Source: Candidatus Hermodarchaeota archaeon (GTDB lineage: Archaea; Asgardarchaeota; Heimdallarchaeia; Hodarchaeales; Hodarchaeaceae). Taken from it: DNA of 32,000 bases. Location: assembly GCA_048886185.1 (NCBI GenBank), contig JBHLKY010000004.1, forward strand, positions 180,001 to 212,000, in the 5' to 3' direction. Shown in pieces: positions 1,117-13,467 of this stretch (the first letter of the stretch is position 1; every line of letters begins with the position of its first letter). The position numbers and the translations under genes are program-made. The notes beneath the pieces were generated by a model. That model did no database searches and was not told the origin of the DNA. It saw only the letters and a program-made list of their open reading frames with translations.

Positions 1117-3516
1117 CTATAGTTTTCGTTGTCGTGGATTCATTGCTTTATCTGTAGCATATCCGATGAATACAAAACCCATCGATAGCAGTACAATCAT
1201 AAGCCCAGGTGGCACAACAAACCACCATGCCATATTTTGTAGTGCTGCGGCATTGTAACCCGCTTGAAGCATACGTCCCCATGATACAAGGCCTTGTGGA
1301 GTTAAGGCGAGAAAACTCAAAGCTGCTTCTGAAAGAATTGCTCCAGAAACGCCAGTAGCGAGTTGGACAAAGACTAAAGTTAAGACATTTGGAAATACAT
1401 GCTTGAAGATAAGATAAACATCGCCTGCACCAGCTGCTTTTGCGGCTTCAACATAAGACTTCTCCTTCTCAACAAGGACTTGAGACCGTATGACCCGAGA
1501 GACGCCAGGCCATGCAAACAGTGCAATAATAATTGTTGTAATTTCTAGACTGGGGCTGAAAAGAGCAGCTAGAATCATCATAATTGGCAACCCAGGCATA
1601 ATTAAGAAAAAGTCGACGATTCGCATTAGAATCTCATCGATATAACCACCAAAATACCCTGATACCAAGCCAACCATAAGTCCTACGAAAACACCAATAA
1701 AAGTCGCAACTAGGCCAATGAATAATGAAACCTGAGCTCCCCACATTAACTGGGACATTACATCTTGACCCGCATCAGTAGTTCCTAATAAACCATAATA
1801 GCTAGGATGAACAATGATCCTAACATTGTCAAACCAAGCAATAGCAGTCCCATTCTCATTCTGGGGGACTGGGGGATTATAAGGATTTATTATCGTATTG
1901 GACCACTCTAATCCAAATTCAATTTCTACAATATTATCTTTCTGAAATGCATAATGATATCCAAGAAGAGAGATATTTCGTGTATATGTTTTCCAAATGT
2001 TATGATAAGGTGGTTCGATCTCAGCTCGTGCAAGATAACCTGGAAAAGGGCTTTCCTCTGGTGTTACAATTTGCGCATAAGGAGAGATATAATTTGGATT
2101 TGACCCAGAATATATACATTTGAAATCATATTTTATGGTCACCCATGTTGGTGCAGAATAATTGAATGCAAAAGAGGTATTTGCTTTCACACTAGTTTTG
2201 TGCCTATAAAATATATTTGGGGTTGTTTCCATTCCATCTATAATTGTCATTTTTACTGATCTTGTACCTTCTGTGAAATTCCCCTCACTGTAATCGAACT
2301 CATATGATCCTCTTGTATCATTTTCATATCCTGGTATTACCTGAACCTCTCCAAACCAAGGTCTGATGCCTTCTGAGCGGAATTCCCAAGAATCATTTTC
2401 TTCAAAAGTAGGATCTAAGATATAATTTTTATATGGTGGTGCCTCTGGATCAGTAATGTCTCGCACCCATATAGGAGCAGCATAATCAGGGCCAACTCGT
2501 GCAAGTACTCCTGGATATAAGGGATATGCAATAGGTGCACCAAGTGCTATAATTACAAAAATGATTACTATGACGAGACCCACCACACCATGTTTAACTT
2601 CAGTGAACTGTTTCCATACTCCTATTGATCGTTCTTTAAAGCCTTTTCGATGAGTATAAGATGTTGGCCATTCCAGGGAGCGAATTGTATCTGCAGTGAC
2701 CTTAAGCATGAAGGTGAGTATAAGAATAACTATTAAAGCTCCGATAAGAATAAAAATGGTATATAGAATTAACTCTATGAGGAGATTAAAGTACGAACCG
2801 ACTGGTAGGTCCAGAATCTGAATTGAACTAATATCAAATGTGAAAAAAACTCCCAGAATACCCCCCATTACAGTAATAGTGATCCCTAGTATCAGAGAAA
2901 TCATAGTTACAAATGTTAATAATAATACTATATATATTAATGCTTCTAATGCTGCTCCAAATGCTCCTCGCCAGTTTATTTTATTTTCTGTTGATTGTAT
3001 TGAGACTTTTATAATTGAAGCAACTATCCCTATTATTGTTAATACAAAACCAATGATTTCAATTATATCATGATAATAACTAAAAGTCCTATTTATGACA
3101 CCTGTGGTGTATTTAAAAAAGTCAATAAATATTCCAGTTTCAAGTAAGAAATCTGAAGTCGATCTTATAAGTTCGGGGCTTATTTCAACTAAAATTACAA
3201 TTATTGCCCAAAAACATGCATAAATGAAACCAATGATAGCGAATCTAAGTGCACGAATCCATTCTAGTTTATGGATTGTGGAGGCAGACACTTTTATAAA
3301 AGACATGAGGGCTCCAATACCAAATATTACCATTGCTACAGTGAATACAGCTAATGTTAGAATTTGACTAGTATCATCTGTAAGAGACAATCCATTAATA
3401 ATGCGGTCTCCAACAGCTATCAAGACACTAGATATGATTCCAAATACAAAAAGATAGAGAAAAGAAATGGTTCCTGATTTAAATGCGTCTGGCCATTCCA
3501 AATTTGCTACTGACAT
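1117..3516 (-). CDS. oppC: OppC/DppC-type ABC permease with three N-terminal membrane repeats and a large extracellular insertion
   Basis: C-terminal core has LLGTTDAGQDV, IDEILMRIVDFFL, EAA loop YVEAAKAAGA, LSEAALSFL, WGRML and NPR. Residues 1-280 and 361-570 are extra to a canonical OppC. Confidence 0.92.
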   Translation of the reverse strand: MSVANLEWPDAFKSGTISFLYLFVFGIISSVLIAVGDRIINGLSLTDDTSQILTLAVFTVAMVIFGIGALMSFIKVSASTIHKLEWIRALRFAIIGFIYACFWAIIVILVEISPELIRSTSDFLLETGIFIDFFKYTTGVINRTFSYYHDIIEIIGFVLTIIGIVASIIKVSIQSTENKINWRGAFGAALEALIYIVLLLTFVTMISLILGITITVMGGILGVFFTFDISSIQILDLPVGSYFNLLIELILYTIFILIGALIVILILTFMLKVTADTIRSLEWPTSYTHRKGFKERSIGVWKQFTEVKHGVVGLVIVIIFVIIALGAPIAYPLYPGVLARVGPDYAAPIWVRDITDPEAPPYKNYILDPTFEENDSWEFRSEGIRPWFGEVQVIPGYENDTRGSYEFDYSEGNFTEGTRSVKMTIIDGMETTPNIFYRHKTSVKANTSFAFNYSAPTWVTIKYDFKCIYSGSNPNYISPYAQIVTPEESPFPGYLARAEIEPPYHNIWKTYTRNISLLGYHYAFQKDNIVEIEFGLEWSNTIINPYNPPVPQNENGTAIAWFDNVRIIVHPSYYGLLGTTDAGQDVMSQLMWGAQVSLFIGLVATFIGVFVGLMVGLVSGYFGGYIDEILMRIVDFFLIMPGLPIMMILAALFSPSLEITTIIIALFAWPGVSRVIRSQVLVEKEKSYVEAAKAAGAGDVYLIFKHVFPNVLTLVFVQLATGVSGAILSEAALSFLALTPQGLVSWGRMLQAGYNAAALQNMAWWFVVPPGLMIVLLSMGFVFIGYATDKAMNPRQRKL

Positions 3517-10526: not shown

Positions 10527-11300
10527 TTAATCTACTTCTTTGAGAAAATTGATCGTACGGGTATATAATTCTACTTTAAATAAATCATCATTCATAATAG
10601 GGTGTGGGGCTCCTTCTACATACCATAGTTCCTTTTTTGAAGAACTAATACTTTCATATATTTGTCTTGCGCTGTTTAAGGATACTAATTCGTCCATAGT
10701 ACCTTGAATAATGAAGGCTGGACATGTTACATTTTTCAATGATTGCTTAACTTTCCTTAATGCTTCTAATACAGTAAAACCAATTGAAGTGGGTATCCAA
10801 TCATATCCCACCCAACCTTGTTCCTTTAATGTCTCGGGAACAAGACTAGAAAATTTTTCAGGGATAACTCGTTTGATTAGAGGTATTTTATTGATAATAG
10901 GCAAGAATGACAGCATACAACTTTTCACGTTCAGTGCTGCAGCCCAAGTTACAATAGCATTGATCTCTTTTCTCTCTGAGGCTAAGAGAAGAGCCAAAAT
11001 ACCTCCCATACTATGGCCAAGAACGAAGATGTGTTCGCATTTCTGTTGGAGTATATTGATGCCCTCATGGGCATCATGCAGCCAATCGGAAAAGGTAACA
11101 TTATAAAGGTCTTGAGGATCTGTACCAAATCCACTTAACGTTGGAAGCCAAATAGATGTCCCTAATTTCGAGTTAAGGGTATAAGCAAAGTCTTTTAAGT
11201 CCCAAGTAGTACCTCCACCAGCACCATGTAAGAGTAAACACCCTGTTGTCGATCCCTTAATGTAAAGTGATTCAGCTCCATCCAAAAATTTGCGTTTCAT
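10527..11300 (-). CDS. Alpha/beta hydrolase, carboxylesterase/monoacylglycerol lipase-like
   Basis: Oxyanion LLLHG, nucleophile elbow GHSMGG, acid GTMDELV, base APH. ATG 11300 (MKRK) preferred because it avoids overlapping the upstream gene. Confidence 0.9.
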   Translation of the reverse strand: MKRKFLDGAESLYIKGSTTGCLLLHGAGGGTTWDLKDFAYTLNSKLGTSIWLPTLSGFGTDPQDLYNVTFSDWLHDAHEGINILQQKCEHIFVLGHSMGGILALLLASERKEINAIVTWAAALNVKSCMLSFLPIINKIPLIKRVIPEKFSSLVPETLKEQGWVGYDWIPTSIGFTVLEALRKVKQSLKNVTCPAFIIQGTMDELVSLNSARQIYESISSSKKELWYVEGAPHPIMNDDLFKVELYTRTINFLKEVD

Positions 11301-11322
11301 TTTTATGCCAAAAAAGGATATT

Positions 11323-12207
11323 TTATACACGCTTAATTAAGTTCTCTAGAATCGAATCACCTACAGCGTGATACCTATGAATAGCTGGATAAATCTTGAC
11401 CTTTGATTCTAAATTCACTGATTCGATAAGTTGAGGAATCGCTTTTATGATTTTTTTAATGGTCGAAGTGAAAGGAAAAACCATATGATCGCAAGGAAAT
11501 TCTTGTTGAGAGAAATAAGGTATATTTTCTATTTCTGATGCTTCGAAAAGAGCACTTTCTCTCGAAACGACCTTATCGAAGGTACCCACAGCGTTAAACC
11601 ATAAAATATTTGGATTTAATAGTGGAGGTGAATTAAGTGAGGTAAGTAGGTGACTTTTTTGAGAAAGTTGAATGAAACCAAGCCCTAGATCGGTTGCTAA
11701 TGGTTCTTGATCATCTTTGAGAAATTTACGAAGTATTAATACAGTTTCTTCTAAACGAGAAATGTCTCCTGTTCCTACTCCATGATTTGGAACAGTAAGT
11801 AAAGCAATTCCTTGAACCATTTGTTCAATCCGGTGAAGGGGATAAGGATGCTTAAAATGAGGACTGGTAAAAACACGTGAAATTATCCCCCCCATACTGT
11901 GCGCTACAATCAAAACCTGTACTTTTCTTTCTCTGTAAATGAAATCAACAGCAGTTAGTAAATCTTCATGAGCTAACGTCTCAATGTTACCAGATATTGC
12001 ATTGCTAAGATTTAAAGCCCAGCAATCCAGATTTTTTTCAATAAAATAATTCCCTAATGAATCCTTATAGGTAAACCATACCTGTGAATTTGATCCAAAT
12101 CCATGAAGAAATAATACAGGGGTACCAGTTGAATCAGGTGTGCAATGATGAAGTCTTGCCAATCCTTGCTGTGTATCAATCTCATAAATAATTTGTGAAA
12201 TGGAAAT
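11323..12207 (-). CDS. Alpha/beta hydrolase, lipase/PGAP1-like
   Basis: FLHGFGS, AHSMGG, VPNHG, TFDKVV, CDH. ORF track starts at TTG 12162, but the frame is open further; ATT at 12207 lies 6 nt after GAGGGA. Start uncertain. Confidence 0.85.
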   Translation of the reverse strand: MSISQIIYEIDTQQGLARLHHCTPDSTGTPVLFLHGFGSNSQVWFTYKDSLGNYFIEKNLDCWALNLSNAISGNIETLAHEDLLTAVDFIYRERKVQVLIVAHSMGGIISRVFTSPHFKHPYPLHRIEQMVQGIALLTVPNHGVGTGDISRLEETVLILRKFLKDDQEPLATDLGLGFIQLSQKSHLLTSLNSPPLLNPNILWFNAVGTFDKVVSRESALFEASEIENIPYFSQQEFPCDHMVFPFTSTIKKIIKAIPQLIESVNLESKVKIYPAIHRYHAVGDSILENLIKRV

Positions 12208-12318
12208 GATAAATCCCTCAATTTCTTAATGGGTAATTTTTTGGATAAAAAAATAGCTTCTCTTCTATAAATAGGAGTGATAACTTTTCTAATTATTAAG
12301 TAGAATCTAGGAATGTAG

Positions 12319-12960
12319 TTAGTTTGTTTTCATAAGAAGTAGCTTTACAAGTCGTATAGGTTCAGGTAGCTTATAAAGAAGAAGAGGTAATATTATGGTA
12401 GTGGCTGTTTGTAATGTAATTTTATGACCAATTGATAGAAAAATTCCCTTTTTATTTCCTTTTTTCTTAATGAAATAAGCTATTAGATGCCCTTCATTGA
12501 AAACTGGAAAAATTTCACACTTCTCTTCCTCTTGGGGATGAGAATGGTCAATTTCACCAAACAATGGTTTTTGGGTAATCCCAATAGTAGGAACATCCAG
12601 ATCGACCCCCAATTCACATGCAAGACCAAAATATCTTGGGTGTTGTCTTCCCGCACCCTCAACCAGAAGAAGGTCGAAAGTATGAAAATGCTTGATAACT
12701 TGGAGAAGGGGGGATTTATTACGAAGACTCAAAAAAGAGCTGATATAAGGAAAAGGAGAATGGACTACTTCCCCCAGAAAGGAATCTTTCTGCTGTTTTA
12801 ATTCAAGATCATAGAGAACTCCTCCCGCTCTAATGTCCTGAGTTCTTTGAGTAACTGTAACAGCTAGCACTGTTTTAGGTTCTTTAATGTAATCTTTTTC
12901 TTCAACAAAGGATGCCTTGGTTATTTGATATTGTTTTACCTCCTCCAGATTAAATCGCAG
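12319..12960 (-). CDS. nfi: Endonuclease V (Nfi) homolog, predicted catalytically inactive
   Basis: FPYIS.FLSLR, LLVEGAG..HPR..GLA..LG, PTIG, SIGH, LPEP.R. The frame extends 30 codons beyond the ORF-track start (RFNLEEVKQYQITKASFVEEKD resembles the EndoV N-terminus) to CTG 12960, 8 nt after AGGTG. Confidence 0.85.
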   Translation of the reverse strand: MRFNLEEVKQYQITKASFVEEKDYIKEPKTVLAVTVTQRTQDIRAGGVLYDLELKQQKDSFLGEVVHSPFPYISSFLSLRNKSPLLQVIKHFHTFDLLLVEGAGRQHPRYFGLACELGVDLDVPTIGITQKPLFGEIDHSHPQEEEKCEIFPVFNEGHLIAYFIKKKGNKKGIFLSIGHKITLQTATTIILPLLLYKLPEPIRLVKLLLMKTN

Positions 12961-13001
12961 TTTCTAAACACCTGAATTGAATTCATTTATCTGAACTTAG
13001 A

Positions 13002-13286
13002 TTATTCCTTTAATAAAGTGAAATTCCCATCAATAATTCGTAGTACATTAGTCCTATTCTTCAAGCCCCATAAGATCTGATGCCCTTCTTGAGCCATCCG
13101 TGCATCTCATGAATCCTTCTAAGGATTTTGTTCGATAAATCAGATATCATGGTAGGTCACATTCCGCAAACCAGACTTTACACGATGAATTGGATAAAAT
13201 TGTCCATCCAATTCGACCCCATGTTGATTTGTGAAGATAGCCTCAAAGATTTTAAGGGATGCCTCCTTCAAGTCTTCATAATTCAT
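13002..13286 (-). pseudogene. Small uncharacterised archaeal protein (FIEQNP...MA.EGH.I.W type) with three in-frame stops
   Basis: Hand translation from ATG 13286 (GAGG upstream): MNYEDLKEASLKIFEAIFTNQHGVELDGQFYPIHRVKSGLRNVTYHDI*FIEQNP*KDS*DARMAQEGHQILWGLKNRTNVLRIIDGNFTLLKE*. One frame throughout. Family resemblance is from memory. Confidence 0.7.
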
Positions 13287-13437
13287 GTCCTCATCGTTCT
13301 CTTTCTCATTAATCGTTCAGTATTTCAGAATTATTGTCATTAAGTTCAGCTAAAAATCAACATTTTTTCATTTCTGAAATCTTCAAAGAAGTACCCCTCC
13401 TAAAATAACCTATTAAGAAAAGAGACCCAGTAATATT

Positions 13438-13452
13438 AAAAATAAAAAAGAA
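13438..13452 (-). terminator. Oligo-T terminator after the ferredoxin gene
   Basis: Minus strand reads ttcttttttattttt about 15 nt past the stop. Confidence 0.5.
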
Positions 13453-13467
13453 GAGTGAGGAGTGCCC

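What the first reader, a model, noticed from the sequence alone, without database searches (positions are those of the whole stretch)
12319..12960. Endonuclease V homolog with all four catalytic positions substituted
Seen, aligned by eye to T. maritima EndoV (D43, E89, D110, H214): GVD becomes AVT (Thr35), SFRE becomes SLRN (Asn81), VDG becomes VEG (Glu101), and RLAH/D becomes RLVK. The GVAK Lys is Gln. The PYI wedge, HPR, PTIG, SIGH and LPEP motifs are kept and the frame has no stops. Inference: selective loss of catalysis with a retained lesion pocket suggests a pseudo-nuclease that reads or shields inosine-containing DNA/RNA rather than random decay.
Basis: partly seen in the sequence, partly recalled or inferred. 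Interest (0 to 1): 0.68.

Follow-up and report, generated by a model that had tools for sequence, protein, structure and literature searches.

The report
Conserved nuclease-dead endonuclease V in Hodarchaeales
An Asgard archaeon (Hodarchaeales) has, as its only endonuclease V gene, a well-conserved version that keeps the fold and the damaged-base pocket but has lost the metal-binding residues needed to cut. It is probably a lesion-binding protein, not the repair nuclease that databases call it.

Summary
Window 12319-12960 (-) encodes a 213-aa Pfam Endonuclease_5 protein (131 bits). T. maritima D43/E89/D110/K139/H214 read T35/N81/E101/Q130/K206. The wedge Tyr, base-pocket glycines, HPR and PEP motifs are kept, and the modelled fold matches EndoV (TM 0.84-0.88).

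It is not a decaying copy. The same pattern ([T/A/S/G]-N-E-[K/Q/R]-K) is fixed in 14 of 22 species of the genus. dN/dS is 0.15-0.20, the same as for canonical EndoV. The gene always lies at one syntenic site (ferredoxin - EndoV - two alpha/beta hydrolases).

A sister subtype (G048 and four database clusters) has no acidic ligand at all (x-Y-P-K-R/K) yet keeps the binding motifs.

No genome has both forms. Six species carry a canonical D-E-D-K-D/H EndoV elsewhere and have an empty syntenic site. On an RpoB tree this swap happened twice.

Seven orthologs, this one included, start at a conserved CTG behind a Shine-Dalgarno-like motif.

Best reading: a selected, non-cutting lesion binder. An ATL-like damage sensor is the closest analogy. 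Biochemistry is untested, and no publication was found.

First-stage readers of this scan noted the same variant, unchecked, in four other genomes.

The parts
12319..12960 (-). CDS of the EndoV-family variant: 213 codons from CTG, plus stop TAA 12321-12319
   Evidence: PF04493 131 bits. AF2 model pLDDT 86.9. TM 0.84-0.88 to EndoV structures.
12958..12960 (-). CTG initiation codon (inferred)
   Evidence: It sits at the aligned position of the ATG of other orthologs, 11 codons before the conserved Gln. CTG is shared by 7 of 15 orthologs.
12964..12966 (-). In-frame TAG that closes the frame one codon upstream of the CTG
   Evidence: It excludes any upstream in-frame start.
12969..12973 (-). Shine-Dalgarno-like AGGTG, 8 nt before the CTG
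   Evidence: GGAGGT-like motifs lie at the same distance in all orthologs.
12856..12858 (-). Thr35 at the position of catalytic D43 (T/A/S/G within the clade)
   Evidence: Tma D43A/C/H mutants are the only ones without cleavage (PMC3025561).
12718..12720 (-). Asn81 at the position of E89 (N in 14/14 NE-type orthologs, E in 33/33 canonical)
12658..12660 (-). Glu101 at the position of D110 (E 14/14 versus D 33/33)
12571..12573 (-). Gln130 at the position of K139 (K/Q/R within the clade)
12343..12345 (-). Lys206 at the position of H214 (K in all 15 orthologs; D or H in canonical)
12739..12750 (-). Wedge motif P71-Y72-I73-S74 (Tma P79-Y80-I81-P82); Tyr invariant
   Evidence: Role of the wedge from PMC4650699.
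12634..12657 (-). G102-A-G104-R-Q-H107-P108-R109: base-pocket glycines and the HPR DNA-binding motif, retained
   Evidence: Pocket residues G111/G113/G121/L142 from PMC4650699.
13468..13698 (-). Upstream syntenic neighbour: 76-aa 4Fe-4S dicluster ferredoxin
11323..12162 (-). Downstream syntenic neighbour: alpha/beta hydrolase (hyd2)
10527..11330 (-). Second alpha/beta hydrolase (Hydrolase_4), overlapping hyd2 by 8 nt

Best explanation
The gene encodes a full-length, correctly folding member of the endonuclease V family that has given up the two-metal nuclease site. It is kept by purifying selection as a non-cutting nucleic-acid binder. Shown: the substitutions, their fixation in a clade, the selection, the single-copy state, and the exclusive distribution against canonical EndoV. 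Inferred: the protein still inserts its Tyr wedge and takes a flipped hypoxanthine (or another EndoV substrate such as a mismatch or flap) into the retained glycine-lined pocket but cannot incise. N81, E101 and K206, invariant in this subtype, probably fill the former metal site, for example through an E101-K206 ion pair and a Lys contact to the scissile phosphate. The likeliest role is a damage sensor that marks deaminated purines and hands them to another nuclease. This would parallel alkyltransferase-like (ATL) proteins, which are dead O6-alkylguanine transferases that channel lesions into excision repair. Such a role would explain why acquiring an active EndoV makes the variant dispensable or harmful. 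The conserved CTG start suggests the protein is made at a low level.
For: Family and fold: (131 bits), (pLDDT 86.9; TM 0.84-0.88 to 4xpu, 2w35, 2w36). Ligand loss fixed in the clade: (N 14/14 versus E 33/33; E 14/14 versus D 33/33; K 15/15; position 43 = T/A/S/G). Tma D43A/C/H are the only mutants of 36 without inosine-dependent cleavage, even in Mn2+ (PMC3025561). Binding elements kept: Q12, Y72, L77, R80, G102, G104, H107, P108, R109, G112, G127, L133, S176, G178, P199, P201, matched to the wedge and pocket lists of PMC4650699. Selection: NG86 dN/dS 0.15-0.20 at dS 0.6-1.4, equal to canonical EndoV at 0.08-0.27. The clade is monophyletic with deep internal branches. A second subtype without any acidic ligand (x-Y-P-K-R/K) still keeps the binding motifs across four 50%-identity clusters. 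There is one EndoV gene per genome. The variant always lies between the ferredoxin and hyd2. That site is empty in four canonical carriers, and the canonical carriers are nested twice among variant carriers.
Against: E101 keeps a carboxylate, and N81, E101 and K206 are invariant, so some altered chemistry in the NE subtype is not excluded. Mutual exclusivity with the active enzyme could equally mean the variant still does the same job. No partner gene specific to variant carriers was found: the syntenic neighbours also occur in canonical carriers, there are no PADLOC hits, and AAG and NucS do not correlate with the state. Active-site geometry could not be inspected because no coordinates were available. 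The RpoB tree rests on one gene, a quick search and long outgroup branches.
Confidence: 0.62

Rival explanations
1. It is still a working inosine-specific nuclease that uses a remodelled active site: E101 plus N81 and K206, or the clade-specific acidic residues E116 and D120, possibly with metal-independent chemistry on RNA.
For: N81, E101 and K206 are invariant rather than drifting. New conserved acidic residues E116 and D120 appear only in the variant clade. The variant and canonical EndoV replace each other, as expected of functional equivalents. In Tma EndoV, E89, D110 and H214 mutants keep specific cleavage in Mn2+ (PMC3025561).
Against: The D43 position, the only one whose mutation abolishes cleavage in Tma EndoV, is A, G, S or T and is not conserved. 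The sister subtype has Y and P at the E89 and D110 positions, leaving no carboxylate. No residue set that could act catalytically is shared by both subtypes.
Confidence: 0.15
2. It is a decaying pseudogene or annotation artefact. The missing ATG and the lost catalytic residues reflect neutral erosion of nfi.
For: There is no ATG/GTG/TTG at the conserved N-terminus, and the first standard start would truncate the protein. All catalytic residues are changed.
Against: dN/dS is 0.15-0.20, as for canonical EndoV. Frames are intact in 15 species and about 30 database proteins. The replacement residues themselves are invariant. The CTG plus SD arrangement is conserved in 7 orthologs. The fold is predicted with high confidence.
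Confidence: 0.02
3. It is an EndoV-fold protein recruited to a role unrelated to damaged-base recognition, for example a structure-specific DNA/RNA binder or a protein scaffold, or an inosine/m1I-RNA (tRNA) reader with no link to repair.
For: Eukaryotic EndoV acts on inosine in RNA rather than DNA (PMC8526164 and PMC7192598 abstracts). There is a clade-specific insertion of about 8 residues after the GITK motif, and many variant-only conserved surface residues such as K166 and K180. No repair genes lie nearby.
Against: A role unrelated to EndoV's would not predict loss of the variant each time a canonical EndoV is present. The pocket glycines and wedge Tyr are the most conserved parts.
Confidence: 0.18

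Closest known systems
Endonuclease V (Nfi; Pfam PF04493; T. maritima 2W35/2W36, E. coli 4XPU)
   Same: Same family by HMM (131 bits) and same fold (TM 0.84-0.88). It has the same N-terminal Gln, PYI wedge, GxG..HPR..G..A base pocket, PTIG, SxGH and PEP motifs, and a similar length of about 213 aa.
   Different: The metal ligands D43/E89/D110/H214 are T/N/E/K (A, G or S at the first position in relatives). There is an insertion of about 8 residues after the K139 motif. The protein scores below NCBIfam's equivalog cut-offs (111 versus 230 bits). Predicted to be unable to incise.
Engineered Tma EndoV D43A, E89Q and D110N (PDB 2W36, 6OZG, 6OZF)
   Same: Laboratory versions of the same idea: ligand substitutions that leave lesion binding intact, used to trap enzyme-substrate complexes. 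Several natural orthologs carry exactly Ala at the D43 position.
   Different: Those are single artificial mutants. Here three or four ligands are replaced at once, naturally, and fixed under selection in a clade.
Alkyltransferase-like proteins (ATL; Atl1 of S. pombe, YbaZ of E. coli, TTHA1564)
   Same: By analogy from general knowledge: a repair enzyme's fold and lesion pocket are retained while the reactive residue is lost, so that the protein acts as a damage sensor passing lesions to another repair pathway. ATLs often occur in organisms that lack the active enzyme.
   Different: Unrelated fold and lesion. Hand-off to excision repair is demonstrated for ATL but is entirely hypothetical here.
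Catalytically inactive PIWI domains of short prokaryotic Argonautes (SPARTA/SPARDA, AfAgo)
   Same: The RNase H-like fold is structurally related to EndoV (distant Foldseek hits). They have lost the DEDX tetrad and serve as binding or sensor modules.
   Different: Those are guide-dependent and genetically coupled to effector domains. No effector partner was found here.

Membership tests
Endonuclease V family (Pfam PF04493) | Sequence match above Pfam's gathering score | tested here: met
   131.1 bits versus a cut-off of 23.4, profile positions 7-195 of 198.
Endonuclease V family (Pfam PF04493) | EndoV variant of the RNase H-like fold | tested here: met
   AF2 model pLDDT 86.9, pTM 0.87. Foldseek TM 0.84-0.88, E 1e-16 to 1e-18 to E. 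coli and T. maritima EndoV.
Endonuclease V family (Pfam PF04493) | Wedge (PYIP) and hypoxanthine pocket (Tma G83, L85, G111, G113, G121, L142) | tested here: met
   P71-Y72-I73-S74. L77, G102, G104, G112 and L133 are kept and invariant in the clade. Only the G83 position varies (S/T/G/F), as it also does in canonical archaeal relatives (residue list from PMC4650699).
Functional endonuclease V (deoxyinosine 3' endonuclease, EC 3.1.21.7) | Metal-binding catalytic residues D43, E89, D110, H/D214 (Tma numbering) | tested here: not met
   T35, N81, E101, K206. The clade pattern is [T/A/S/G]-N-E-K. Role of these residues from PMC3025561.
Functional endonuclease V (deoxyinosine 3' endonuclease, EC 3.1.21.7) | NCBIfam equivalog score (NF008629 / NF041102) | tested here: not met
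   111.3 bits versus cut-off 230, and 95.8 versus 300. The canonical Hodarchaeales EndoV also falls short (196.7), so this test is weak.
Functional endonuclease V (deoxyinosine 3' endonuclease, EC 3.1.21.7) | Cleavage of the second phosphodiester 3' to inosine | not testable with these tools
   Needs purified protein and dI-DNA / I-RNA substrates.
ATL-like damage sensor (functional analogy, not homology) | Derived from a repair enzyme with the reactive site lost and the lesion pocket retained, under selection | tested here: met
ATL-like damage sensor (functional analogy, not homology) | Stands in for the active enzyme in the genome | tested here: met
   One EndoV-family gene per genome, and 0 of 22 species have both forms. 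The syntenic site is empty in canonical carriers.
ATL-like damage sensor (functional analogy, not homology) | Lesion-specific binding and hand-off to another repair nuclease | not testable with these tools
   No variant-specific partner gene was found in the neighbourhood or by AAG/NucS co-occurrence.

The most novel reading that the evidence does not exclude
Hodarchaeales, the archaea placed closest to eukaryotes, replaced the universal inosine-repair nuclease with a nuclease-dead EndoV. This protein acts as a dedicated hypoxanthine/inosine sensor, an EndoV counterpart of ATL proteins. It is functionally interchangeable with, or antagonistic to, active EndoV, is kept at a low level by a conserved CTG start, and has evolved further into a subtype with no metal ligand at all.
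Probability: 0.35. Interest if true: 0.75.

Novelty: new variant of a known kind. Interest (0 to 1): 0.62.

Why it matters
EndoV is treated as a universally conserved nuclease, and all public records of this clade are named 'endonuclease V'. If the clade cannot cut, those annotations mislead. Most Hodarchaeales would then lack the standard enzyme for deaminated adenine.

A natural, selected, binding-only EndoV would be the first pseudo-nuclease of this family. It would be a ready-made inosine-binding reagent scaffold, since engineered inactive EndoV is already used to capture inosine RNA. It would also be a second example, after ATL proteins, of a repair enzyme turned into a lesion sensor.

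The repeated swap between dead and active forms offers a natural experiment on whether the two are redundant or incompatible. The conserved CTG start adds a documented case of near-cognate initiation in Asgard archaea.

Tried and rejected
- **Second nfi copy in the genome:** none found.
- **Pseudogene decay:** rejected by dN/dS and by the conservation of the replacement residues.
- **Operon partner that explains function:** the ferredoxin and the two alpha/beta hydrolases are syntenic but are also present, in the same order, in species without the variant. They are therefore not variant-specific.
- **Defence-system link:** no PADLOC hits for the gene or its neighbours.
- **Compensation by other hypoxanthine or mismatch enzymes:** Pur_DNA_glyco is present in only 3 of 22 genomes and NucS in 15 of 22, neither tracking the variant/canonical state. 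The own genome has neither. EndoQ was not tested because I had no family accession.
- **Contamination as the source of canonical EndoV:** unlikely. Five related species carry orthologous copies whose tree roughly mirrors RpoB, although their neighbourhoods are not conserved.
- **Upstream ATG in another frame (12986-12984):** it gives a 16-codon ORF that is not conserved in orthologs.
- **Rfam:** no RNA family in the window.
- **Literature:** five searches found no report of a natural inactive EndoV or of EndoV in Asgard genomes beyond passing mentions.
- **Active-site geometry in the model:** not inspectable, because no coordinates are returned.

Full report
**1. What is in the sequence**

On the minus strand, the frame from 12960 to 12319 is open. 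It opens with CTG (12960-12958), preceded by AAA and an in-frame TAG (12966-12964). The ORF lister, which accepts ATG/GTG/TTG, finds only a 183-aa version from GTG 12870.

The 213-aa translation matches Pfam Endonuclease_5 at 131 bits, over profile positions 7-195 of 198. It also matches all solved EndoV chains. The best is E. coli 4xpu at 8e-19, followed by T. maritima 2w35/2w36.

Those alignments and two MSAs put T35 at Tma D43, N81 at E89, E101 at D110, Q130 at K139 and K206 at H214.

**2. Whose genome, and how many copies**

Close homologs are named Hodarchaeales, Hodarchaeota or Heimdallarchaeota MAGs. The window is contig 4 of a 4.84-Mb assembly that is 96% complete. That assembly holds only this one PF04493 match in six frames.

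**3. The substitutions define a clade**

Among 83 genomes of the class, 56 have an EndoV match, nearly always a single one. I extracted all of them.

| State in the window's genus (22 species) | Species | Residues at Tma 43/89/110/139/214 |
|---|---|---|
| NE-type variant | 14 | [T/A/S/G]-N-E-[K/Q/R]-K |
| More derived form | 1 (G048) | Y-Y-P-K-K |
| Canonical EndoV | 6 | D-E-D-K-D/H |
| No match (71% complete) | 1 | - |

A column-by-column comparison of 14 variant and 33 canonical sequences shows clean switches:
- N versus E: 14/14 against 33/33.
- E versus D: 14/14 against 33/33.
- Four further switch columns.

The same comparison shows that the N-terminal Gln, wedge Tyr, L77, R80, G102, G104, H107, P108, G112, A114, G118, G127, S176, G178, P199 and P201 are kept in both groups.

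These kept residues include the wedge and hypoxanthine-pocket residues listed for T. maritima EndoV (P79-Y80-I81-P82; G83, L85, G111, G113, G121, L142; PMC4650699). The lost ones are the metal site (D43, E89, D110, H214; PMC3025561).

In that paper, D43A, D43C and D43H were the only mutants of 36 without inosine-dependent cleavage, even in Mn2+. The variant clade carries Ala, Gly, Ser or Thr there, without conservation. This is what one expects if the site no longer holds a metal.

**4. Under selection, not decaying**

- Pairwise Nei-Gojobori dN/dS within the variant clade is 0.15-0.20 for pairs with dS 0.6-1.4. This is indistinguishable from canonical EndoV in the same genus (0.13-0.27) and in another family (0.08-0.2).
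- The clade is monophyletic (SH-aLRT 93, stem length 0.71), with internal depth like that of canonical family-level clades.
- An AlphaFold model built on 23 clade members has pLDDT 86.9 and pTM 0.87. It superposes on E. coli and T. maritima EndoV with TM 0.84-0.88.

**5. A second, even more stripped subtype**

A profile of the clade, searched against 1.84 billion representatives, found:
- only three 50%-identity clusters of the x-N(R)-E-K-K type;
- four clusters of a [S/T/Y]-Y-P-K-[R/K] type, to which the G048 copy belongs.

The second group has no acidic residue at any ligand position. It still keeps the wedge Tyr, GxG..QHPR..GLA, PTIG.TK, SxGH/N and RLPEP. So the lineage continued to be maintained after every trace of the metal site was gone. 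This is the strongest argument that its function is not hydrolysis.

**6. Genomic setting and exclusivity**

In about 13 variant species the gene lies between a 4Fe-4S ferredoxin and two alpha/beta hydrolases, all on one strand.

In four canonical-EndoV species (G049, G053, G054, G060) the same ferredoxin-hyd2-hyd3 block exists. There, only about 220 nt, or a small ORF, lies where the variant would be. Their canonical gene sits elsewhere, in neighbourhoods that differ between species. No genome has both forms.

On an RpoB tree, canonical carriers are nested among variant carriers in two places (outgroup-rooted):
- G060 is sister to G063 (SH-aLRT 98).
- The G049 group is sister to G048 (88-91).

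The canonical genes of the G049 group are closest to those of another family, f7 (98), and G060's copy is separate. The most economical history is one ancient origin of the variant, followed by two later replacements by acquired canonical genes.

Caveats: this rests on a single marker, a quick tree search and long outgroup branches. Differential loss from an ancestor with both forms is not excluded.

**7. The start codon**

At a fixed 11-12 codons before the conserved N-terminal Gln:
- seven orthologs have CTG (G000, G065, G059, G068, G051, G056, G064);
- four have ATG;
- one to three have TTG.

Every one is preceded at 8-10 nt by a GGAGGT-like motif. In six of the CTG cases an in-frame stop lies within two codons upstream. 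The conserved Gln corresponds to a DNA-binding residue mutated as Q20A in PMC3025561. It lies upstream of any standard start in this window.

CTG initiation is therefore the best reading. Database gene calls for this clade are often N-terminally truncated: 201 aa from ATA here, and 182 and 180 aa elsewhere.

**8. Mechanism**

*Shown:* an EndoV fold with the binding apparatus conserved and the metal site abolished, under purifying selection, as the sole family member in the genome, and exclusive with the active enzyme.

*Inferred:* the protein binds EndoV-type substrates without cutting. The invariant N81, E101 and K206 would occupy the old metal site.

The exclusivity suggests one of two things. 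The variant may serve the same cellular need as EndoV, as a sensor that passes deaminated purines to another nuclease, in the manner of ATL proteins. Alternatively, a tight non-cutting binder may be incompatible with an active EndoV.

I found no partner gene:
- the neighbours are not variant-specific;
- there is no defence-system signal;
- there is no correlation with AAG or NucS, both of which the own genome lacks.

Residual nuclease activity of the NE subtype cannot be excluded without an assay.

**9. Comparison and novelty**

By sequence and fold this is a member of the EndoV family. It fails the defining catalytic-residue test for the enzyme, and it scores below NCBIfam's equivalog thresholds.

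Its nearest analogues are the laboratory D43A, E89Q and D110N trapping mutants and, in concept, ATL proteins and the inactive PIWI domains of short Argonautes.

Five full-text searches found no description of a natural inactive EndoV or of this Asgard clade.

First-stage readers of this scan independently flagged orthologs in four other genomes, and the CTG start in this window. None of those notes had been followed up. My tests agree with them.

**10. Verdict**

The finding extends to a clade-wide, two-subtype pseudo-nuclease lineage with a striking replacement pattern and a conserved CTG start. The function remains inferential.

Noticed in passing
L045 (G048:C157, about 1290-1976, minus strand); proteins P0124, P0125, P0127, P0128: A second subtype of the dead EndoV lineage has Y and P at the E89 and D110 positions and R/K at H214, so no acidic ligand remains. 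It is conserved across four 50%-identity clusters.
   Followed up: partly
L049 (G001), L047 (G034), L048 (G033): Other Heimdallarchaeia families carry independently degenerate EndoV homologs: S-E-H-G-R in G001 and Y-E-L-H/R-H in two f5 genomes (65 bits). Loss of EndoV catalytic residues seems recurrent in this class.
   Followed up: no
Protein P0126 (1285 aa): A very long protein with three separate EndoV-like stretches, scoring 166 bits to the variant profile. Its architecture is unexplored.
   Followed up: no
window 12162-12210 and about 20485: An earlier first-reader note on this window (e1-5454632) proposes further near-cognate starts: ATT 12207 for the hydrolase and ATA 20485 for a YkgJ-like gene. 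I checked only the EndoV CTG. The ORF lister gives TTG 12162 for the hydrolase.
   Followed up: no
window 11323-11330: The two alpha/beta hydrolase genes overlap by 8 nt on the minus strand, so they are probably co-translated. In G049 and G060 the second hydrolase match carries an in-frame TAG or is truncated.
   Followed up: no
whole genome G000: There is no six-frame match to Pur_DNA_glyco (PF02245) or NucS_C (PF01939) in this 96%-complete genome. With no canonical EndoV either, its route for hypoxanthine repair is unclear. EndoQ and AlkA were not checked.
   Followed up: partly
L003-L007 (canonical EndoV loci of G049, G052-G055): The canonical EndoV gene of closely related species sits in different neighbourhoods in each. 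This is consistent with a mobile or rearranging region, or with acquisition by transfer.
   Followed up: partly
window 12961-13467: A non-coding gap of about 500 nt lies upstream of the EndoV variant. It holds only a dubious 71-aa plus-strand ORF (13128-13343), and no Rfam family matches anywhere in the window.
   Followed up: partly
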